Assembly: GCA_964410735.1 (NCBI GenBank)
Contig: CAYPIF010000107.1
Coordinates: 6,656 to 70,655 of the forward strand
Origin: an uncultured Thermoplasmatales archaeon
Lineage (GTDB): Archaea > Thermoplasmatota > E2 > DHVEG-1
Direction: 5' to 3'
DNA length: 64,000 nt
Shown piece after piece: positions 15,124 through 24,968 of the stretch. The stretch's first letter is position 1. Every line of letters begins with the position of its first letter. Made by a program: the position numbers and the translations under genes. Under the pieces are notes generated by a model. It ran no database searches. It was not told where the DNA came from and was given only the letters and a program-made list of their open reading frames with translations.

Positions 15124-15564
15124 ATGGGTGAAAACAAAAGTATACTTTCATTAATGATAGAGGAACATAAGAAAATTGAATCACTTGTTGACACACTTGA
15201 TGAACGTGTCGATGGCGAATATGATAAGATGAAAGAAGCATTTTCTCTGATGGAATGGCAACTTGAAAAACATCTTTTTCTGGAGGAAAAAGCAATTTTT
15301 ACCATGTACGAACCGGAAGACATCAACCAAGGCTATAATATGCTTCCAACTGTAACAACCCATCATAACGAGATTCTGGACAAACTCGGTTTGATGAGAC
15401 GGTCGATTCAGAATGGACAAACCCCTCAAGACCTCTACAAATTCAAGAAATTCCTTATCGTACATCGAACATTTGAAGAAAAGGACCTCTATCCAAAATT
15501 AGAAGATGTTCTCACTGATGCCCAAAAAGAAATAATAATCGAAAGGATTAATGAAATAATATAG
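15124..15564 (+). CDS. hemerythrin-like (HHE cation-binding) domain protein
   Basis: 146 aa. Four-helix-bundle pattern with His/Glu ligands ('EEHKKIE', 'HHNEILDKL', 'HRTFEEKDLYP'). Confidence 0.7.
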   Translation: MGENKSILSLMIEEHKKIESLVDTLDERVDGEYDKMKEAFSLMEWQLEKHLFLEEKAIFTMYEPEDINQGYNMLPTVTTHHNEILDKLGLMRRSIQNGQTPQDLYKFKKFLIVHRTFEEKDLYPKLEDVLTDAQKEIIIERINEII

Positions 15565-15579
15565 GATGGTTTATACCAT

Positions 15580-15771
15580 ATGAGTGAAAAAAAAGGATAT
15601 CAATGTAACACCTGTAAGAAAACAAAGATCGTGGATGATGATACGATTCCAACCTGCTGTGGCCAACAGATGAAACAAGTGCCACTAGATATCTGCATGC
15701 AACCATCACATGCAGAACATGCTCGGCCGATGGACGATGAAGAGCCCTGTGACGACTTTCGAGCAGGGTAA
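15580..15771 (+). CDS. desulforedoxin-like small metal-binding protein
   Basis: 63 aa. 'YQCNTCKK...TCCGQQMKQV' matches the desulforedoxin CxxC...CCG.xM signature. It is tandem with the hemerythrin gene. Confidence 0.5.
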   Translation: MSEKKGYQCNTCKKTKIVDDDTIPTCCGQQMKQVPLDICMQPSHAEHARPMDDEEPCDDFRAG

Positions 15772-17193: not shown

Positions 17194-18132
17194 TCATCGT
17201 AACAAACCCTGGATAATGATATCAGTTGCCTTCTCTTCATCAAGTCCACGGGCCATAAGGGTCTGTAATTGTTTAGTGTCCACACTGCCCAGGGATGCCT
17301 CATGGGTGATATGTGCCTTAGAATGATTCACTTTCACAATTGGGATCGCACTTACAATTCCATTATCCTGAACTATCTCCTTACAATCAACATGGCCTCG
17401 TGCATACGGTGCGGAGGCTGTAAGTTCACTATATACCTCAGCATTTGCAGAGTCTCGTACTGCAACTCTTGAAAGTAATACTCCATGAGCATGTTCGCCT
17501 TTCAGATGTCCTTTCTCTTTGATACGGACTTCATCAGTATGGGTCGCATTGACACGTGCATTCATTTCAAGGACACTATATGATTCAGCGATTGTCTCAT
17601 AATCAATGTCTATCTTTCCAACACGGCCTTTTAGGAGTTCAAAATCTGTCTTGTACCGCGCATGATCAAGAAGATGGATCTTTGATTTTGGTACAACAGT
17701 GATACCACCTGTGTTGCCATGAACATGTCGTTCTATATAAGAATATGATGCATGTTTACCTATGGTAATGGATGCATCCATAAGATGTTGGATATCAACC
17801 GCGTTAGGGAATGTACAATGTGCAAGGACCTGCATCGATGCATTATCCTCAATTTGTATATCCATGTTAATTCGTTGTATGCCTTGTTTATGCATTACTC
17901 CAAAACACATATGGACCGGCTGAGCAACAACTGTTCCTTTTTGTAATATAACCTTTAAAGATACTCCATCTTCAAGTTCTTCAGGTTCTATGATCAAACC
18001 TGGGACTGCATGGAGTCCGACAACCTTGTTATGATGTATAAAAAGATGAGCAATATCCTTTCTTTTGAAGATATCATGTTCGATACCAGATGCATCAGAT
18101 AACATTGTCTTTAATTTGTTCTCCTCGCTCAT
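17194..18132 (-). CDS. sufD: Fe-S cluster assembly protein SufB/SufD family
   Basis: 312 aa. It has a SufBD C-terminal beta-helix region and overlaps the sufC stop. Confidence 0.75.
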   Translation of the reverse strand: MSEENKLKTMLSDASGIEHDIFKRKDIAHLFIHHNKVVGLHAVPGLIIEPEELEDGVSLKVILQKGTVVAQPVHMCFGVMHKQGIQRINMDIQIEDNASMQVLAHCTFPNAVDIQHLMDASITIGKHASYSYIERHVHGNTGGITVVPKSKIHLLDHARYKTDFELLKGRVGKIDIDYETIAESYSVLEMNARVNATHTDEVRIKEKGHLKGEHAHGVLLSRVAVRDSANAEVYSELTASAPYARGHVDCKEIVQDNGIVSAIPIVKVNHSKAHITHEASLGSVDTKQLQTLMARGLDEEKATDIIIQGLLR

Positions 18133-18875
18133 GCAACTGCCCCCTTATCTGGCATATTCTTATGATTGCAAGGAATACAGTTGTTTTCAAAATAGGGGAT
18201 GATCTTCTTTGCCTCTGCTTTCTCTATGATCTGACCACCACACATTAAAAAAGCGTGATCTGCCTGTCTTAAGACCGCTAAGCTATGGGTAATAAGAAGT
18301 ATCGTTGTACCTTTTTTCTTTAGTTTTTTGATGACCTCGGCCATTTTATCAAGTGTTCCAACATCGATACCTGAATCTGGTTCATCAAGCATGATAAACG
18401 GTGGGTCCATCGCAAGTATCGAAGCAAGTTCAACCTTTTTTCGTTCACCACCACTTAATGTTTGATCTACGGATCTGTTAAGATATTCCTCCGGGTTCAG
18501 CCCCATCTGGATTAATGAATCGTTTATGATACCTTCAGCATCTTTCTTTCTTGAAGCTGGTATCCCTGCCGCAATGAAATCATGGATACTGATACCTTCA
18601 TATCGTGCTGGTTCTTGCCATCCAAAAGTGATGCCTTTTCGCGCTCGTTCATCAATCGAGAGGTCATTGATCTTTTCACCATTGAAGAAGATATCACCGG
18701 TCACATCACGGTATCCTTCGAGACCCATGATCGATGATGCAAGGGTTGATTTCCCTGCTCCATTCGTGCCAACTAATGCATGGATATGTCCGTTCCATAT
18801 GTCCAAGTTCACCTTCTTTAATATGTGATTTCCATTGATTTTTAAACTGAGGTCTTTTATCTCAACGATTCCCAT
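18129..18875 (-). CDS. sufC: Fe-S cluster assembly ATPase SufC
   Basis: Walker A 'GTNGAGKST', signature 'LSGGERKKVELAS', Walker B 'IMLDEPDSG'. The ORF track start (19031) adds an implausible 52-aa extension; 'MGIVEIKDLSL' is the expected SufC N-terminus. Confidence 0.85.
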   Translation of the reverse strand: MGIVEIKDLSLKINGNHILKKVNLDIWNGHIHALVGTNGAGKSTLASSIMGLEGYRDVTGDIFFNGEKINDLSIDERARKGITFGWQEPARYEGISIHDFIAAGIPASRKKDAEGIINDSLIQMGLNPEEYLNRSVDQTLSGGERKKVELASILAMDPPFIMLDEPDSGIDVGTLDKMAEVIKKLKKKGTTILLITHSLAVLRQADHAFLMCGGQIIEKAEAKKIIPYFENNCIPCNHKNMPDKGAVA

Positions 18876-18936
18876 GGTCTGTACCTTCATTTGATATATG
18901 CTATTTTTGAAACTGAAAAAAATGAAAGATGTGGTT

Positions 18937-19320
18937 TTAGGTTTTGTTTTTCCATAATCCATGCACGTTACAGTATTCCCGTGCTTCCACATCATCTGCG
19001 TGTAGTTCGAACAATGCCTCTGGTTTATCACCCGGTTTCAGGAATTTTCTCATACTTGTTCCATCTGCCAGGACCTGTATCCATTCGATGTAATGTTTTT
19101 CTTCCATTGGATGGGACTGATTCTGACCGACCTTCACAAGGATACCTTGCTCAGTTTTTTCAATATATGGTACATGTTTCTCTGTTGAGGCGTCCTGGGT
19201 TTTTTCGTCTTGTTTCTCCATTGGTTTGCCGCAGCATACAAGTTGTCCAGCACCAGCATGTAATACTTCCACAATATTTCCACAAATCATACATTTATAT
19301 ATTTCTCGGACCTTCGTCAT
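18937..19320 (-). CDS. dfx: desulfoferrodoxin (2Fe superoxide reductase) with N-terminal desulforedoxin domain
   Basis: 127 aa. '[12 protein letters not shown]...LVCCGKPM' is the Dx domain. The SOR domain has His ligands and C-terminal 'CNVHGLW'. Confidence 0.85.
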
Positions 19321-19341
19321 TTGTTACATTCCTCCTTATTT

Positions 19342-19917
19342 TCAATATGCTTCTACAAAGAGCTCGTAATAGCTCTGAGGATGTTGACAGGCAGGACAGA
19401 TCTTTGGTGGTTCAGGACCCTCATAGATATAGCCACAGTTCCGACATTTCCATTGGACCTTTTTCTCTCTTTTGAACACGAGACCGTTCTCCACGTTATG
19501 TAAAAGTGTTCTGTATCGTTTCTCATGAGCGGCTTCTACTTTTGCTATAGATGCAAAGCTTCGTGCGACCTCTGGGAATCCTTCTTGCTCCGCGGTTGTT
19601 GCAAAATCCGGGTAGAGTGTCCCCCATTCCATTTTTTCTCCTTCCGCAGCTGCAAGAAGGTTTTCTTTTGTCGTTCCGATCTTACCAGCTGGATAGGTTA
19701 CAGTGATCTCAACATCCCCACCTTGTAGATGTTTGAAGAAGACCTTTGCATGTTCCTTTTCGTTTTCAGCTGTTTCCTCAAATAAGGCAGCGATTTGTTC
19801 ATATCCTTCTTTTCGTGCTTGTGACGCAAAGTAGGTATATCTATTTCGTGCTTGGGATTCTCCTGCGAATGCTTTTAAGAGGTTTTGTTCTGTTTTTGTT
19901 CCTTTTAATGTTGCCAT
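19342..19917 (-). CDS. rbr: rubrerythrin
   Basis: 191 aa. Diiron ferritin-like domain with two E..H motifs. C-terminal rubredoxin 'WKCRNCGY...CPACQHP'. Confidence 0.9.
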
Positions 19918-19943
19918 GTTCCTTTCACCTTAATCTGCATTTT

Positions 19944-20438
19944 TTATGGTCCTGCATGGACCATTTCCCAGTAGACATCTGCCTGTTCGAACCGTTCAAT
20001 GCTCTCTTTTTCGGTTTGTAATATGCGGTAATGACCCATTTCCATATCAGCGAAATATCGTAACATCTGTGAGGTCTTGGTATCTGTGAATCTCTTTGAG
20101 AGCAGCTCATAGAAATCATGCGCTGCTTGTTCGGCCTCCATGGCTTGTGAGAGAATGGTGCTTAATGGGATATCCTCATCTGATGGTATCTGTATCTCAG
20201 GGAGCGGTACAGGCGATGTTTTTGGTATTGTTATCTCTTCCTTTGGAAAGGTTTTTTTAAAGAGTTTTTCGAGGTATTGTTTGTGTTTTGTTTCCTCGGA
20301 AGCAAGAAAATGGAATTTATCTTTCATAAGACCATTTTCCACTTTTTTCTCAAGTGTTGTATAGACCTTGTAACTTTCCATTTCGCTTTTAAGAGCAGTG
20401 AGTATAAGGTCTTTGATGTCATATTCTTCATAGTTCAT
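19944..20438 (-). CDS. ferritin-like/rubrerythrin-family diiron protein (no rubredoxin domain)
   Basis: 164 aa. Two helical halves with 'ASEETKH' and 'ADMEMGH' E...H-type motifs. Confidence 0.55.
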   Translation of the reverse strand: MNYEEYDIKDLILTALKSEMESYKVYTTLEKKVENGLMKDKFHFLASEETKHKQYLEKLFKKTFPKEEITIPKTSPVPLPEIQIPSDEDIPLSTILSQAMEAEQAAHDFYELLSKRFTDTKTSQMLRYFADMEMGHYRILQTEKESIERFEQADVYWEMVHAGP

Positions 20439-20448
20439 GGGTATTCAC

Positions 20449-20853
20449 CTAATCCAATAATCGTTGTTGACCTGTGAGTTTTTGGAGATCTGTTATATCC
20501 TGTGATGCCTCAAGACATCCTAGATATCCTCCGTTTTTATCACGTAAAGCATAGTATTCGATCATCACCTTATGAGGCGGAGTATTCTCATCAAATGTAA
20601 GGTCTATCCAGAATCGTGCTTTCTCTCTTTTTCCTGCTTTCATCTCTTCTAGGATCTGTTCAACCTTTCCGAGGCTCTTTTTGGGATGGCAGTTTCGAAC
20701 GTTCCTGCCAACAACGGCCTCAGGACGTTTGAATATCCTTGTGGCATGTTTGTTCCATGCCACAACGTTATCATCTTTGTCAACGATTGAAATCTCCACA
20801 GGTATTGTTTCTAACACCACGTCGATAAAATCTTCAGGTAGTTCTCCTATCAT
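20449..20853 (-). CDS. PAS-domain protein (putative sensor)
   Basis: 134 aa. PAS-fold pattern 'ISIVDKDDNVVAWNKHATRIF' with a conserved Cys/His 'RNCHP'. Family assignment is uncertain. Confidence 0.5.
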   Translation of the reverse strand: MIGELPEDFIDVVLETIPVEISIVDKDDNVVAWNKHATRIFKRPEAVVGRNVRNCHPKKSLGKVEQILEEMKAGKREKARFWIDLTFDENTPPHKVMIEYYALRDKNGGYLGCLEASQDITDLQKLTGQQRLLD

Positions 20854-20880
20854 TTTTCGTTCCTCTTGGTTCAGATTCCT

Positions 20881-21393
20881 CTATTCCTTTGCGATCTCCG
20901 AAACAAATGTCCTCTGCCCAAGTTCTTTATCGATCATGAAGAGTCCGTTTCCTTTTTCTCCAACGAGTTTAAGTTTGGCAATGATCTCATTGTCATTTGC
21001 CTCCTCTTCGATTTGTTCTGTGACGAACCATTGGAGAAATATCTGCGTCGCATGATCTTTTTCTTTGATAGCAAGGTCCATGAGGTCGTTGATGGATTTG
21101 GTTATGAATTGTTCATGTTCCAGTGTTTTCTCAAACATGTCCATCGGGTTTTCGAACGTAGATGGGGGTTCATCGATCTTTTTAAGATGGATCTTACTTC
21201 CTTGATCATTGAGGTAGTTGTAGATACGCATTGCGTGTTCCATCTCTTCATTGTATTGCACCATGAACCAGTTGGCAAACCCATCCAGACCAATGTTGGT
21301 TGTGTGACCTGACATTGAGAGATAAAGATACGCGGAATACATTTCTTTGTTCATTTGCTCGTTCAGTGCTTTTTCCATTGTTTTGCTTATCAT
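20881..21393 (-). CDS. ferritin (non-heme, FtnA-like)
   Basis: 170 aa. Ferroxidase-centre residues 'EMYSAYLY', 'EEMEHA', 'EHEQF', 'QWFVTEQIEEE'. Confidence 0.85.
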   Translation of the reverse strand: MISKTMEKALNEQMNKEMYSAYLYLSMSGHTTNIGLDGFANWFMVQYNEEMEHAMRIYNYLNDQGSKIHLKKIDEPPSTFENPMDMFEKTLEHEQFITKSINDLMDLAIKEKDHATQIFLQWFVTEQIEEEANDNEIIAKLKLVGEKGNGLFMIDKELGQRTFVSEIAKE

Positions 21394-21413: not shown

Positions 21414-22055
21414 TTAGATCTTTTTATGACAGAACCACCAATCATAACAGTTGTATTCCTTTGTTCGTTTCTCAGCTGTTTTCACATCAGATGCAGGCGG
21501 GACGATGACCTCATCCTTGATCAGTTCATTATTTGGCCAGTTCGCGGGTATTGCAACACCATTACTATCTGCAACTTGGAATCCTTTGATCATGCGGAGG
21601 AATTCATCCATGTTCCGGCCTAATTCTTGAGGATAATACAAGATTGCTCTAATGGTCCCTTTTGGATCCACCATGAATATTGCCCTGACCGTATTTGTTC
21701 CCTTACCAGGGTGGATCAATCCAAGAGTGTTGGCGACTTTTCCGGTATCCGCTATGATAGGGAATTCTATTTTAACATCAAGTTTTTCTTTGATCCATTC
21801 TTCCCATTTGATATGAGCAAATACCTGATCAACGCTCAGTCCAATTAACTCGGTGTTCAATTCCTTGAACTGCTTCCAGCGTTTCTGAAAAGCAACGAAT
21901 TCAGTGGTACAGACCGGTGTGAAATCAGCAGGGTGGCTAAATAATATGAACCATTTACCTTTGTAATCACCGGGTAGTTTTTTCATTCCGTGAGTTGTTT
22001 GTACCTGCATTTCGGGGAATGCATCCCCAATTAATGGCATTTTCATTTCATCCAT
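21414..22055 (-). CDS. peroxiredoxin (AhpC/TSA, 1-Cys/Prx6-type archaeal)
   Basis: 213 aa. Peroxidatic 'FTPVCTTE'. C-terminal 'CYDWWFCHK'. Confidence 0.9.
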
Positions 22056-22126: not shown

Positions 22127-22288
22127 TTTTTATTTTATTCGTTTCATAGGAACACCACAGCAGTAGGGAATACTGTTGGGTGCTGAGTCAAATTCTATGA
22201 TGGAGTCACAGTTGCAATCCTCGTCCTTACAATTGCATTTGTATTGCACCGGTTTACCTGCCCCTTCACATCCACAACTATTACACAT
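22127..22288 (-). CDS. 52-aa Cys-rich metal-binding protein (9 Cys; C-terminal desulforedoxin-like CCG.PM), not in the ORF track
   Basis: Translation: MCNSCGCEGAGKPVQYKCNCKDEDCNCDSIIEFDSAPNSIPYCCGVPMKRIK. ATG at 22288 with GGGAGGTG 8 nt upstream; TAA at 22127-22129. It sits between fprA and the peroxiredoxin gene. Confidence 0.55.
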
Positions 22289-22324
22289 TTTTTAAACACC
22301 TCCCGGTTTATTACCACTTATAGT

Positions 22325-23509
22325 TCATTTTTTTATATATTTTACTATTTTTGAACCGATATCTCTCATTTTATCTAAATCATTTTCGCCGGGTATATAA
22401 TTGACATTCATACTTTTGATGGGGCGATCCCACCCAAGTCCATCAATGATCTTTTCAATCTCTCCTACCGCCTGACCACCCCACCCATAGGAACCAAAAA
22501 CAAATCCAACTCGGTTAGATGGTCGAAGTCCTTTCAGATAGGTCAGAAAACCACCCATTGTTGGAAGCATCCCATTGTTGAGTGTAGGTGAACCTAGTAG
22601 AACCAATCGTGACTCAAGGATATCAGTTATGATATCTGACATGTGATTTTTTTGAAGATGCCTCATACGCACATCCATTCCTTTGTCCCTGAGGCCGTCA
22701 AGCAATGCATATGCTAATTTTTCAGTTGACCCCCACATAGTGTCATAGATGATTACCGCTTTTTCTTCAGTTGTATCAGTTGACCATTTCTTGTAATATT
22801 CGATCATTTGTTTGTAGTGTTTCCGCCATATGATACCATGACTTGGAGCGATCATATCAAAGTCTAAGGAACCGATTGTTTCGAGGGCTTTTTGGACTTG
22901 CCCCCCATACGGTAAAACGATATTGGCATAGTATTTTGCAGCCTCATCCCTGAGTATATCAAAGGGAAGCTGATCATCAAAGCGTTCTGAAGTTGCTATA
23001 TGCTGACCAAACGCATCATTGGGTATGAGCAGCTTATCAAACGCACTGTATGTGACCATGGAATCAGGCCAATGGACCATCGGTATGTGGACGAACTGTA
23101 GTGTTCTTTTTCCAATAGATAGTGATTCGCCAGAAGTAACAACTTGGGTTTTCCAGTTGTGGTTGTAATGACGTAATAATCCTTTCTCTCCCCGTGTTGA
23201 GGTGATCAGTGTTGCATCAGGGATCATTGGCAGTATCTTTGGAAGGCTTCCTGAATGATCCATTTCCACATGGTTCGAGATGACATAGGCGATATCTTTT
23301 GGGTCTACAACTGATTTGATCCGTTCAAGCATCTCTTCAAAAAGATAATGTTTTACCGTGTCTATCAAAGTAACCTTCTCATCGATTATAAGATATGCAT
23401 TATATGTTGAGCCTTTCGGCGTCTTATATCCATGGAAATCACGGAGATCCCAATCGATGCCTCCAACCCAATAGACATTGGGTTTAATCTTGATTGCTTT
23501 CATCTCCAT
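22325..23509 (-). CDS. fprA: flavodiiron protein (rubredoxin:oxygen/NO oxidoreductase, FprA)
   Basis: Metallo-beta-lactamase-like diiron domain 'HVEMDHSG', plus a C-terminal flavodoxin domain. The ORF track start at 23512 is a GTG; ATG at 23509 overlaps the rubredoxin stop (TGATG). Confidence 0.9.
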   Translation of the reverse strand: MEMKAIKIKPNVYWVGGIDWDLRDFHGYKTPKGSTYNAYLIIDEKVTLIDTVKHYLFEEMLERIKSVVDPKDIAYVISNHVEMDHSGSLPKILPMIPDATLITSTRGEKGLLRHYNHNWKTQVVTSGESLSIGKRTLQFVHIPMVHWPDSMVTYSAFDKLLIPNDAFGQHIATSERFDDQLPFDILRDEAAKYYANIVLPYGGQVQKALETIGSLDFDMIAPSHGIIWRKHYKQMIEYYKKWSTDTTEEKAVIIYDTMWGSTEKLAYALLDGLRDKGMDVRMRHLQKNHMSDIITDILESRLVLLGSPTLNNGMLPTMGGFLTYLKGLRPSNRVGFVFGSYGWGGQAVGEIEKIIDGLGWDRPIKSMNVNYIPGENDLDKMRDIGSKIVKYIKK

Positions 23510-23667
23510 CACTGTACTTCAAATGCTTCTTTTCCTGCACCACAGACAGGACATACCCAATCATCTGGTAGTTCCTCAAAGGATGTTCCCGGGGCTATAC
23601 CCCCATCTGGATCTCCATTTGCAGGGTCATAGATATACCCACAGACGGTACATACATATTTTTCCAT
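23509..23667 (-). CDS. rub: rubredoxin, not in the ORF track
   Basis: Translation: [52 protein letters not shown] (52 aa). It has both CxxCG knuckles; GGAGG lies 6-7 nt upstream of the ATG. Confidence 0.85.
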
Positions 23668-24212
23668 ATTTTTTCCTCCAAATCCGTTTTTAACTGTTTT
23701 TTACTTTCTTTACCCACATAGGTCGGTGCTGTCTTAGGAGAATATCCACCTTTGACAGTATGATAGTACGCATAGGTCATTGGTTCTGCATCGTTCAGAA
23801 CCTCTGCGTTGATGATGTCACCAACAAAAATCGTATGTGTGCCAACATCTATTGATTGATTGACCTTAACTTCCATGAAAGCAATGGCGTGATCCGTGAC
23901 AATAGGCATGTTTGTTCTTTCAAAAATGCAACTTACCCCATTCATCTTGTCAATGTCACGACCGCATTTGAACCCAAATGTGCCAATAAAGGTCATCGGT
24001 GTATCCTTATCAAGGATAGAAAGTGTAAAAGATCTGCTCTTTTGGATAAGTTCATGGGTGAGGTTCTGTCTATTGATGCTGATTGCAAGTGTTGGTGGCT
24101 CCGAGGTAACTTGGAATGCCGCGTTAGCTATCTGACCATTCTCTTTTCCATCAAACTTAGAACATACAACGTAAAGGCCATAGGTGATCTTTTGTAATGC
24201 TTTTTTATCCAT
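23595..24212 (-). CDS. flavin reductase-like (FMN-binding split-barrel) protein
   Basis: 205 aa. 'ITYGLYVV...[11 protein letters not shown]' flavin-reductase domain. Its last ~24 codons overlap the rubredoxin gene in another frame. Confidence 0.75.
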
Positions 24213-24639
24213 TTTTATGCTCCCTTTTTTTTAGGCAGTTCTTGCAAATGCCTCTGAAATATCCGTGGACCTCATCGATCTGATGGCCATGTTTCTTGAT
24301 GTCCTTTTTGATGGTTTCAATATTTGGGCAGTGGAAATGAACATCGTATATCTGTCCACATTCCTTACAGATGAAATGGTGATGCATCTCCTGATGAAAA
24401 TCATATCTATGTTCTGTGGGACATATGGTCAATCGTTGGATGATACCGGAGTTTGTAAGTATTTCAAGGGTGTTATAGACCGTTGTTTTTGAAAGGGAAG
24501 GATATTTTGAGACCAAGGCCTGGTATATCTCGTCAGCAGTGGGGTGCGTGAGATGTGATTCCAGATAACGGAGTATCACAAGTCGTTGCTGTGTGACCTT
24601 CAGATCATGACCCCGGAGAAGCTCAACATAGGTTTTCAC
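24205..24639 (-). CDS. Fur-family metalloregulator (PerR-like, inferred from context)
   Basis: DNA-binding 'LKVTQQRLVILRYL' and a metal site 'HHHFICKECG...CKNC'. The ORF track start (24762) adds a hydrophobic extension of about 41 aa. GTG at 24639 with GGGGT about 8 nt upstream gives a typical ~144-aa Fur protein. Confidence 0.75.
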   Translation of the reverse strand: MKTYVELLRGHDLKVTQQRLVILRYLESHLTHPTADEIYQALVSKYPSLSKTTVYNTLEILTNSGIIQRLTICPTEHRYDFHQEMHHHFICKECGQIYDVHFHCPNIETIKKDIKKHGHQIDEVHGYFRGICKNCLKKREHKNG

Positions 24640-24755
24640 ATGAATTACCCCAATAGATGAAATGATTATTAATTTGAAATAATTACAATTTAAAACCAAA
24701 TACATTCTTTGGTATTTAAGCTTAATGGAAAAGATATAAAAAAGAGGGAAAAAAG

Positions 24756-24968
24756 TTAGCAAGAACTATGTTCAATTGCATCGTTAGGACAGGCACTGAC
24801 ACATGCACAGCATTCAATGCATTCTGCAACATTATTTGCTACAGCCTTCCCATCAACAAGTTCAAAAACATCCACGGGACAAACAGTAACACATTCGCCG
24901 GTACCAGTACATTTCTCATAATCGATAATGATTTTAATATCTCCCTCTTCAAACTCTTTTTTTACCAT
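24756..24968 (-). CDS. small Fe-S ferredoxin
   Basis: 70 aa. Two Cys clusters, 'CTGTGECVTVCP' and 'CIECCACVSACP'. GGAGG SD upstream of the ATG. Confidence 0.7.
   Translation of the reverse strand: MVKKEFEEGDIKIIIDYEKCTGTGECVTVCPVDVFELVDGKAVANNVAECIECCACVSACPNDAIEHSSC

What the first reader, a model, noticed from the sequence alone, without database searches (positions are those of the whole stretch)
22127..22288. Unannotated 52-aa protein with nine cysteines and a desulforedoxin-like CCG.PM tail inside the ROS cluster
The ORF (MCNSCGCEGAGKPVQYKCNCKDEDCNCDSIIEFDSAPNSIPYCCGVPMKRIK) is below the 60-aa cut-off of the ORF track. It has a near-consensus GGGAGGTG ribosome-binding site 8 nt upstream of its ATG and sits precisely between fprA and the peroxiredoxin gene.

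The Cys spacing is CxxCxC...CxC...CxC...CC. This looks like a metallothionein-like or miniature Fe(Cys)4 protein. The last residues resemble the C-terminal half of the desulforedoxin motif seen in dfx and in ORF 15580-15771. It could be an undescribed small redox or metal-buffering partner of the Rd/FprA/Prx system.
Basis: seen in the sequence. Interest (0 to 1): 0.6.

Follow-up and report, generated by a model that had tools for sequence, protein, structure and literature searches.

The report
Nine-cysteine desulforedoxin-like protein beside FprA
A real, strongly conserved 52-residue gene in the oxygen-defence operon of uncultured Thermoplasmatota archaea encodes a nine-cysteine protein with a desulforedoxin-like core, probably an undescribed small metal-binding redox partner of the flavodiiron oxygen reductase.

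Summary
The ORF is real. It lies on the minus strand at 22130-22288 (52 codons plus stop). A GGGAGGTG Shine-Dalgarno sits 8 nt before the ATG, 36 nt after fprA and 74 nt before a peroxiredoxin gene.

It is a gene under purifying selection: median dN/dS is 0.16, and 208 protein clusters of about 50-52 aa match it. Public annotations call them only "hypothetical protein", and they have no Pfam or NCBIfam family. In species-representative genomes it occurs almost only in Thermoplasmatota MAGs. In 28 of 43 loci it directly follows fprA, within clusters headed by a PerR-like gene and carrying Hrb or rubredoxin, rubrerythrin, Dfx and ferritin.

145 of 182 unique sequences keep all nine Cys. C18, C43 and C44 are essentially universal; C2 is dispensable.

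Residues 14-52 resemble desulforedoxin:
- hhalign against Dfx N-domains gives P=1.2e-5.
- Desulfoferrodoxin is the only PDB sequence hit, and it is weak.

It fails the Pfam threshold and the strict CxxC motif. Five further conserved Cys imply a second metal site.

Best reading (inferred): a two-centre iron-thiolate electron carrier working with Hrb/Rd and FprA. A zinc protein or a metal buffer is not excluded. I classify it as a new variant of a known kind.

The parts
22130..22288 (-). CDS of the 52-aa nine-cysteine protein ('Cys9'), stop codon included
   Evidence: ORF list and translation. An identical protein is called in JGI and Logan contigs. Purifying selection, dN/dS about 0.16.
22133..22249 (-). 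Desulforedoxin-like core, residues 14-52. Predicted strands are VQYK and IIEF. It carries C18, C20, C25, C27, C43, C44 and the conserved motif PYCCGxPMKR[IV]K.
22250..22288 (-). N-terminal Cys-rich extension, residues 1-13 (M-C2-xx-C5-G-C7...K12). It has no counterpart in desulforedoxin and is the presumed contributor to a second metal site.
   Evidence: C5 is invariant, C7 at least 90% conserved and C2 about 90% conserved. The model is less confident here (pLDDT 65).
22297..22304 (-). Shine-Dalgarno GGGAGGTG, 8 nt before the ATG
   Evidence: Read directly from the sequence. An SD-like motif is conserved in 39 of 43 orthologous loci.
22325..23512 (-). Class-A flavodiiron protein (FprA), 395 aa. 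Its stop codon lies 36 nt before the Cys9 ATG.
   Evidence: Pfam ODP, Lactamase_B and Flavodoxin_1; NCBIfam flavorubredoxin-like, below cut-off. It is the immediate upstream neighbour in 28 of 43 loci.
23509..23667 (-). Rubredoxin ORF (52 aa, [10 protein letters not shown]...CPVCG). It corresponds to the C-terminal domain of Hrb but is in another frame here.
   Evidence: Translations and comparison with the intact 234-aa fusion in L003.
23595..24212 (-). Flavin-reductase part of the high-molecular-weight rubredoxin (Hrb), 205 aa, with its frame broken before the rubredoxin domain
   Evidence: Pfam Flavin_Reduct.
24205..24762 (-). PerR-like Fur-family regulator at the head of the cluster
   Evidence: Pfam FUR; NCBIfam PerR models are the best hits, all below their curated cut-offs. 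It is present upstream in most related loci.
21414..22055 (-). Peroxiredoxin, 74 nt downstream
   Evidence: Pfam AhpC-TSA plus 1-cysPrx_C; NF009668 above cut-off.
18937..21393 (-). Rest of the co-directional ROS cluster: ferritin 20881-21393, PAS 20449-20853, rubrerythrin-like 19944-20438, rubrerythrin 19342-19917, desulfoferrodoxin 18937-19320
   Evidence: Pfam/NCBIfam scans and JGI gene calls.

Best explanation
**What it is (shown).** A translated gene, co-directional with fprA and only 36 nt downstream of it, so very probably co-transcribed. It belongs to a conserved family with no Pfam or NCBIfam model, found almost only in uncultured Thermoplasmatota.

**Structure (inferred).** A compact metal-thiolate protein. 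Residues 14-52 adopt the desulforedoxin fold. They form a distorted tetrahedral M(Cys)4 site from C18, C27 (or C25) and the adjacent pair C43-C44. The insert between C18 and C27 supplies C20 and C25. Together with the N-terminal C5 and C7 (C2 is dispensable), these make a second Cys4 site that desulforedoxin lacks.

**How it most likely works (inferred from fold and synteny).** With iron bound, it acts as a small one-electron carrier in the oxygen/ROS-detoxifying chain of the cluster headed by the PerR-like gene. It would take electrons from the rubredoxin module (Hrb or free Rd) and pass them to, or tune delivery to, FprA and possibly Dfx and rubrerythrin.
For: - **Real gene:** the frame is intact in 43 loci. 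Median dN/dS is 0.16 and third-position variability is 0.43 against 0.18/0.13. An SD-like motif is present in 39 of 43 loci.
- **Family size:** 208 clusters at 90% identity and 36 representatives at 50% identity among 1.84 billion proteins.
- **Cysteines:** 145 of 182 unique sequences keep all nine. C18, C43 and C44 are practically universal. About 12 sequences lack only C2.
- **Desulforedoxin likeness, sequence:** a PDB profile search returns only desulfoferrodoxin 1dfx. It aligns C27 with C12 and the CC pair with C28-C29, with the same x15 spacing. hhalign against Dfx N-domains gives P=5.4e-5 and P=1.2e-5; the second spans residues 13-51 with YKC18 aligned to YKC9.
- **Bridging relatives:** P0154 is a 35-aa Y-x-C-xx-C-G...EFD...CCGxxMKRV protein. 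P0133, P0145 and P0138 keep C18, C27 and the CC pair but lose C20 and C25 together. P0130, P0135 and P0140 have His in place of C27, a typical ligand swap. P0149 hits PF06397 over the full domain at E=0.009.
- **Context:** the gene directly follows fprA in 28 of 43 loci with gaps of 2-48 nt. It follows Hrb in 3 loci that lack fprA. A rubredoxin module (Hrb or free Rd) sits upstream of fprA in most loci that carry fprA.
- **Background:** class-A FDPs receive electrons from small Fe(Cys)4 proteins, namely rubredoxin (PMC9364112, read).
Against: - **No experiment:** the metal identity, the stoichiometry and any redox activity are unknown.
- **Marginal sequence evidence:** no Pfam hit for the window protein, and only 3 of 121 members touch PF06397, all below threshold. 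A PDB search with the more diverse profile found nothing. No Dfx appears among the hits of the 1.84-billion-protein search.
- **Fold scores are low in absolute terms**, which is unavoidable for 36 residues. AlphaFold may also lean on the known Dx fold.
- **An extra carrier is not obviously needed:** by my recollection of the cited Moorella study (cited in PMC9364112 but not read here), Hrb plus FprA suffice in vitro.
- **Three CxC motifs plus a CC pair** are also typical of metal-thiolate clusters (metallothionein-like).
- **The ligand partition is uncertain:** C18/C27 against C25/C27 rests on alignments that disagree, and no coordinates could be inspected.
- **The physiological role of desulforedoxin itself** is, to my knowledge, not established.
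Confidence: 0.45

Rival explanations
1. A zinc-binding structural or regulatory micro-protein (zinc-ribbon or zinc-finger type). It would bind one or two Zn ions through its cysteines. It would either dock onto FprA/Hrb as an accessory subunit, or act as a thiol/zinc redox switch that releases Zn when its cysteines are oxidised by peroxide or O2.
For: Weak hits of distant members to zinc-ribbon-like Pfam families: DUF7130, DUF7129 and Zn_ribbon_RPB9. CxxC and CxC knuckles are generic Zn ligands. The gene lies in a stress operon next to HSP20 in several loci. A conserved basic C-terminal tail (MKR[IV]K) could be a docking element.
Against: The best fold and profile matches are to an iron protein family (Dx/Dfx), not to zinc ribbons. 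The adjacent CC ligand pair is the hallmark of desulforedoxin. No DNA- or RNA-binding features were seen.
Confidence: 0.2
2. A folded metallothionein-like metal buffer or metallochaperone. The nine cysteines would hold a small metal-thiolate cluster (for example M3Cys9, or a binuclear site with bridging thiolates). It would sequester Fe, Zn or Cu released from damaged centres during oxidative stress, or re-supply iron to FprA, Rbr, Dfx or the Fe-S assembly machinery.
For: Three CxC motifs plus CC, with 17% Cys. Two members hit Pfam Metallothio_PEC weakly, E=0.006. The gene sits next to ferritin in several loci. In five loci it directly follows IscU in a TusA-NifS-IscU block. SufC and SufBD lie in the same cluster in the window. 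Distant members with 6-7 Cys plus one His do not add up to two full Cys4 sites, which would fit bridging ligands.
Against: Invariant or near-invariant aromatic and hydrophobic residues (Y16, I31, F33, Y42) and a confidently predicted beta-sheet core are atypical of classical metallothioneins. The Cys fraction is well below that of metallothioneins. The fold match is to a mononuclear Fe(Cys)4 protein.
Confidence: 0.2
3. A chance ORF, or a non-protein feature such as an intergenic spacer, a leader peptide or a RiPP precursor.
For: The ORF is short (52 codons). No Pfam family matches it.
Against: Amino-acid conservation is deep while synonymous sites are saturated: mean pS 0.85, dN/dS 0.16. The SD motif is conserved. 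There are 208 clusters. The structure is predicted with confidence. No RiPP maturation genes appear in any neighbourhood examined.
Confidence: 0.02

Closest known systems
Desulforedoxin (Desulfovibrio gigas Dx; PDB 1dxg/1cfw) and the N-terminal centre-I domain of desulfoferrodoxin / 2Fe-SOR (Pfam PF06397; PDB 1dfx)
   Same: - About 36-residue core with the same predicted strands.
- The Y-K-C start of the first knuckle.
- The C-[GD]-x-I-[IV]-E-[VF] second strand.
- 15 residues between the second ligand and an adjacent Cys-Cys pair, followed by G-x-P-M-K.
- Found in the same ROS gene clusters.
   Different: - The first knuckle is not CxxC. It is C18-x-C20-x4-C25-x-C27, that is, a 6-residue insert carrying two extra Cys.
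- A 13-residue N-terminal extension adds C2, C5 and C7.
- That makes nine conserved Cys instead of four, implying a second site.
- The window protein gives no PF06397 hit at E<=10; the few members that do hit score at most about 16 bits against the gathering score of 23.
- Always stand-alone and never seen fused to a SOR domain.
- Its own signature is EFDxxPxxxPYCCGxPMKR[IV]K.
- Restricted to Thermoplasmatota MAGs.
Rubredoxin, including the rubredoxin domains of Hrb and flavorubredoxin, the usual electron donors of class-A/B flavodiiron proteins
   Same: A small (about 52 aa) Cys-ligated protein encoded next to fprA. The gene order fprA then Cys9 mirrors the domain order FDP then Rd in flavorubredoxin. 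The presumed role is one-electron transfer.
   Different: No sequence or fold match to rubredoxin, and no PF00301 hit. It lacks the two CxxCG knuckles. A true rubredoxin module is already present upstream of fprA in the same operons.
Metallothioneins (for example the M3Cys9 beta-domain; bacterial SmtA-type)
   Same: Nine Cys arranged largely as CxC and CC motifs in a small protein. Weak Pfam Metallothio_PEC hits for two members.
   Different: It has invariant aromatic residues and a predicted beta-sheet hydrophobic core. The Cys fraction is 17%. No significant family match. The comparison with SmtA and the beta-domain rests on my own knowledge and was not tested here.
Window ORF 15580-15771 (63 aa) and minimal relatives such as P0154 (35 aa)
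   Same: They share the Y-x-C...P-x-C-C-G-x-x-M-K-[RQ]-V motif. hhalign P=9.4e-5 over the tail. P0154 is retrieved by the family profile.
   Different: They have a classical CxxC first knuckle and lack both the N-terminal Cys extension and the insert. The 63-aa ORF has a different C-terminal extension and sits next to a hemerythrin gene, not fprA.

Membership tests
Desulforedoxin / Desulfoferrod_N (PF06397) | Score above the Pfam gathering threshold (23 bits) | tested here: not met
   No hit for the window protein at E<=10. Only 3 of 121 members hit, best E=0.043. The distant member P0149 scores 16.1 bits.
Desulforedoxin / Desulfoferrod_N (PF06397) | Ligand motif C-x2-C-x15-C-C | tested here: not met
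   The second half is met exactly: C27-x15-C43-C44. The first knuckle is C18-x-C20-x4-C25-x-C27, not CxxC. Minimal relatives P0154 and P0149 do have CxxC.
Desulforedoxin / Desulfoferrod_N (PF06397) | Desulforedoxin fold (short antiparallel sheet with two metal-binding knuckles) | tested here: met
Desulforedoxin / Desulfoferrod_N (PF06397) | Profile-level homology to the Dx domain | tested here: inconclusive
   hhalign P=1.2e-5 with probability 81%, and P=5.4e-5 with probability 66%. PDB hmmsearch gives E=0.17 with one profile and nothing with another.
Desulforedoxin / Desulfoferrod_N (PF06397) | Binds one Fe in a distorted tetrahedral Fe(SCys)4 centre; homodimer | not testable with these tools
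   Needs metal analysis, UV-vis/EPR and a structure.
Rubredoxin (PF00301) | Two CxxCG knuckles and a family HMM match | tested here: not met
   No PF00301 or RUBY_RBDX hit. The only CxxC is C2-x2-C5.
Metallothionein | Very high Cys content, few or no aromatic residues, no regular secondary structure without metal | tested here: not met
   17% Cys. Y16, F33 and Y42 are invariant or nearly so. The beta strands are predicted with pLDDT above 90.
Metallothionein | Polynuclear metal-thiolate cluster with bridging Cys | not testable with these tools
   Model coordinates could not be inspected, and no metal data exist.
FprA-linked electron-transfer partner (functional class, not a sequence family) | Conserved operonic linkage to a class-A flavodiiron protein | tested here: met
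   fprA is the immediate upstream same-strand neighbour in 28 of 43 loci, with gaps of 2-48 nt.
FprA-linked electron-transfer partner (functional class, not a sequence family) | Reversible one-electron redox chemistry and electron transfer to FprA | not testable with these tools
   Requires biochemistry.

The most novel reading that the evidence does not exclude
Cys9 is the founding member of a new class of two-centre (or small-cluster) iron-thiolate redox proteins. It would be a desulforedoxin that has acquired a second metal site. It would serve as a dedicated partner of archaeal class-A flavodiiron proteins, either as the physiological electron entry point for FprA, Dfx and Rbr, or as an iron-delivery and repair factor for their iron centres.
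Probability: 0.3. Interest if true: 0.65.

Novelty: new variant of a known kind. Interest (0 to 1): 0.5.

Why it matters
The natural electron donors of stand-alone flavodiiron proteins are unidentified in many organisms (PMC9364112). To my knowledge, the physiological role of desulforedoxin-type centres is also unresolved.

This family gives a concrete, easily expressed 5.7-kDa candidate that selection keeps next to fprA across a whole archaeal clade. That clade includes sediment Thermoplasmatota, which have no cultured members.

If it binds iron at two sites, it would be a new small iron-thiolate scaffold of interest to bioinorganic chemistry. It would also be a missing component in models of how strictly anaerobic archaea survive oxygen. 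If it binds zinc, or buffers metals, it would still define a new conserved member of the archaeal ROS-defence gene cluster headed by a PerR-like regulator. The family also deserves a Pfam or NCBIfam model so that it stops being missed or labelled 'hypothetical'.

Tried and rejected
- **Family scans of the 52-mer:** Pfam and NCBIfam gave no hit at E<0.1.
- **Pfam scan of all 121 members at E<=10:** only scattered sub-threshold hits appeared: Matrilin_ccoil 4, Desulfoferrod_N 3, Metallothio_PEC 2. These are too weak for membership. I regard the Matrilin hits as compositional.
- **PDB profile search with the more diverse alignment A4:** nothing at E<=10, so the E=0.17 hit is not robust on its own.
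- **AFDB fold search:** the library was not available.
- **Model coordinates:** they are not exposed, so Cys-Cys geometry could not be measured. The ligand partition is therefore inferred only from alignments and from which Cys are lost together.
- **Literature searches** (desulforedoxin-like archaea; MBG-D rubrerythrin/SOR; desulforedoxin, small protein, cysteine-rich, flavodiiron; flavodiiron Thermoplasmat rubredoxin): nothing about this family.
- **Considered and rejected:**
  - HdrB-type CCG domain: no CxxC after the CCG, and the length is wrong.
  - RiPP precursor: no maturation genes nearby.
  - Thiol reductant for the adjacent peroxiredoxin: Prx is the neighbour in only 4 of 43 loci.
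  - NiSOD-like N-terminal hook: no His1, and C2 is dispensable.
  - Chance ORF: refuted by the conservation data.

Full report
**1. The observation.**
- The ORF is present as described, but on the minus strand at 22130-22288, stop included. The finding's left coordinate, 22127, runs one codon past the stop.
- The product is MCNSCGCEGAGKPVQYKCNCKDEDCNCDSIIEFDSAPNSIPYCCGVPMKRIK. It has nine Cys in 52 residues, a mass of about 5.7 kDa and a calculated pI of about 5.0.
- GGGAGGTG lies at 22297-22304, 8 nt before the ATG.
- The stop of the upstream same-strand gene is 36 nt before the ATG. That gene is a class-A flavodiiron protein at 22325-23512, with ODP/Lactamase_B plus Flavodoxin_1 domains. The start of a peroxiredoxin (21414-22055) is 74 nt after the stop.
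- On the coding strand, the spacer after the gene is A-rich, with no T-run.

**2. The surroundings.** The whole stretch is one co-directional oxidative-stress cluster on the minus strand. In order it contains:
- ferredoxin (24756-24968) and a PerR-like Fur-family regulator (24205-24762);
- a flavin reductase (23595-24212) followed by a rubredoxin ORF in another frame (23509-23667);
- FprA, then Cys9, then Prx;
- ferritin, a single PAS domain protein, a rubrerythrin-like protein, rubrerythrin and desulfoferrodoxin (18937-19320);
- SufC, SufBD, a nitroreductase, a glutaredoxin and an FTR-like protein with a rubredoxin domain.

The window is identical, as reverse complement, to JGI metagenome contig Ga0643562_0000094. 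The closest named genome with the same gene order is the MAG 'Thermoplasmatota archaeon M17C-73-05'.

**3. It is a real gene.**
- A single-sequence search found 16 clusters at 63-100% identity, including the identical protein, which JGI already calls 'hypothetical protein'. A profile search found 208 clusters at 90% identity. Nearly all are 50-52 aa, none has a Pfam domain, and the only names given are 'hypothetical protein' from Thermoplasmatota or Thermoplasmatales MAGs.
- An exhaustive HMMER search of 1.84 billion representatives found only 36 clusters at 50% identity with E<=1e-3. The family is tight and small.
- A scan of species-representative genomes returned 42 loci, and nearly all are Thermoplasmatota MAGs. 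Three short contigs from oddly assigned bins and one spurious 11-residue match are the exceptions.
- In 43 non-redundant loci the frame is intact. Mean pS is 0.85 (saturated) against mean pN of 0.21. Median dN/dS is 0.16 over 244 unsaturated pairs. Variability by codon position is 0.18/0.13/0.43.
- An SD-like motif precedes the start in 39 of 43 loci.

**4. Conserved anatomy.**
- Among 121 close members, C5, C18, C20, C27, F33, P37, P41, C43, C44 and M48 are invariant. M1, C2, G6, C7, K12, Y16, C25, I31, E32, Y42, G45, K49, R50 and K52 are at least 90% conserved.
- Of 182 unique sequences, 145 have all nine Cys. About 12 lack only C2. C18, C43 and C44 are practically universal.
- Distant members are informative:
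  - P0154 (35 aa) is a minimal Y-Q-C-xx-C-G...EFD...P-x-CCGxxMKRV protein.
  - P0133, P0145 and P0138 lose C20 and C25 together but keep C18, C27 and the CC pair.
  - P0130, P0135 and P0140 replace C27 by His.
  - The N-terminal Cys vary in number.
- I infer a universal core site made of C18, C27 and C43-C44. An accessory site would be built from C20 and C25 (the insert) plus C5 and C7 (the N-terminal extension), with C2 dispensable.
- This partition is an inference. HMMER aligned C27 to Dfx C12, whereas hhalign aligned C25. I could not inspect model coordinates.

**5. Relation to desulforedoxin.**
- *Sequence.* The only PDB sequence at E<=10 for the first family profile was desulfoferrodoxin 1dfx (E=0.17). 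The alignment runs from residue 26 to 50 against Dfx 11-35 and places the CC pair on C28-C29 with identical spacing. A broader profile lost this hit.
- *Profile against profile.* I compared the family with 18 Dfx N-domains taken from the related loci. This gave P=5.4e-5 (probability 66%, residues 29-51) with the close-member alignment. It gave P=1.2e-5 (probability 81%, residues 13-51 against Dfx 4-36, with YKC18 on YKC9) with the diverse alignment.
- *Pfam.* Several distant members give sub-threshold hits to PF06397 across the full domain, the best being P0149 at E=0.009.
- *Membership.* The protein works like, and probably descends from, a Dx-type domain. It fails two formal criteria: the Pfam gathering score and the CxxC first knuckle. 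It also carries five extra conserved Cys. I therefore do not file it as a member of PF06397. I treat it as a new variant.

**6. Context across genomes.** Across 43 loci:
- The immediate upstream same-strand gene is fprA in 28 loci, with gaps of 2-48 nt. In one further locus the annotated genes overlap.
- It is Hrb in 3 loci that lack fprA.
- In five loci Cys9 lies at the end of a PerR-FprA-Rbr-TusA-NifS-IscU block.
- In most loci that carry fprA, a rubredoxin module sits upstream of it, either the Hrb fusion or a free Rd, and most loci also have a PerR-like gene further upstream.
- The downstream neighbour varies: Prx, ferritin, rubrerythrin, reverse rubrerythrin, HSP20 or Dfx.
- The constant association is therefore with the Rd/Hrb-FprA electron-transfer module inside a ROS cluster headed by a PerR-like gene. 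It is not with the peroxiredoxin.

**7. Mechanism.**
- *Shown:* a conserved gene, co-directional with fprA and closely spaced behind it, encoding a small, Cys-rich protein with a predicted Dx-like fold.
- *Established background:* class-A FDPs take electrons from small Fe(Cys)4 proteins, and the natural donors are often unknown (PMC9364112). By my recollection of the Moorella study cited there (Silaghi-Dumitrescu et al. 2003, not read here), an Hrb-FprA pair is functional.
- *Inferred:* Cys9 binds iron at a Dx-like Cys4 site and at a second Cys4 site. It would act as a one-electron relay between the rubredoxin module and FprA, and possibly Dfx and Rbr. I put this at about 0.45.
- *Rivals:* a Zn-binding accessory protein or redox switch (about 0.2). 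A folded metallothionein-like metal buffer or iron chaperone (about 0.2), supported by the CxC/CC motifs and the ferritin, IscU and Suf neighbours. A non-gene (about 0.02).

**8. Novelty and score.**
- No Pfam or NCBIfam model matches, no source gives the protein a name, and none of the searched papers mentions it.
- It is a new variant of a known kind: a desulforedoxin-type small metalloprotein with an added Cys-rich insert and N-terminal extension.
- It should interest specialists in anaerobe oxygen defence and in iron-thiolate proteins, and it is directly testable. It does not overturn anything. Interest 0.5.

Noticed in passing
window 23509-24212 (minus strand): The high-molecular-weight rubredoxin gene is frame-broken here. 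The flavin-reductase part ends at 23595 after a nonsense tail (...[27 protein letters not shown]). The rubredoxin domain ([10 protein letters not shown]...) reads in another frame from 23667. Relatives (L003, L005) encode an intact 232-234-aa fusion. The same break is present in a second assembly (L002). It may be a real frameshift or split, or a shared sequencing error.
   Followed up: partly
window 15580-15771 (+), next to hemerythrin gene 15124-15564 (+): A second small desulforedoxin-type ORF of 63 aa (MSEKKGYQCNTCKK...IPTCCGQQMKQV, plus a Cys/His-containing tail). It has a classical CxxC...CC motif and no Pfam family. hhalign to the Cys9 family gives P=9.4e-5 over the CCGxxMK tail. It looks like a paralogous, also undescribed, Dx-like protein paired with a hemerythrin.
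   Followed up: partly
L014 8376-10572; L041 4091-5973 (related loci): In many relatives a TusA-like, DsrE-like, NifS/IscS cysteine desulfurase and IscU block lies inside the ROS cluster between rubrerythrin and Dfx. In L039-L042 and L049, IscU carries a His/Cys-rich tail (HTCEHNHNHCDTC) and is followed directly by Cys9. This links ROS defence with Fe-S repair. The window has SufC and SufBD instead (17194-19031).
   Followed up: partly
L017 and L022 (both in CP070712.1, Thermoplasmatales archaeon bin50): One genome carries two copies of the Cys9 gene. One is in a full PerR-Hrb-FprA cluster. The other stands before a reverse rubrerythrin without a recognisable fprA upstream.
   Followed up: no
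window 20449-20853 (minus strand): A stand-alone 134-aa PAS (PAS_10) domain protein with no output domain is embedded between ferritin and the rubrerythrins. It recurs in several related loci (L003, L027, L037, L044, L048). It may be an O2 or redox sensor or a cofactor-binding partner.
   Followed up: no
L023 (Altiarchaeales bin), L045 (Nitrospira bin), L047 ('bacterium' bin): Cys9 homologues occur on short contigs (5-7.5 kb) assigned to non-Thermoplasmatota bins. Two of the three show no recognised ROS genes near Cys9; L045 still has a PerR-like gene upstream. These are probably mis-binned contigs, but lateral transfer is not excluded.
   Followed up: no
window 18129-19031 vs 18937-19320 (minus strand): The longest SufC-like ORF (GTG start, 300 aa) overlaps the 3' end of dfx by about 95 nt. 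JGI calls a shorter 277-aa gene. The true start is probably further downstream.
   Followed up: no
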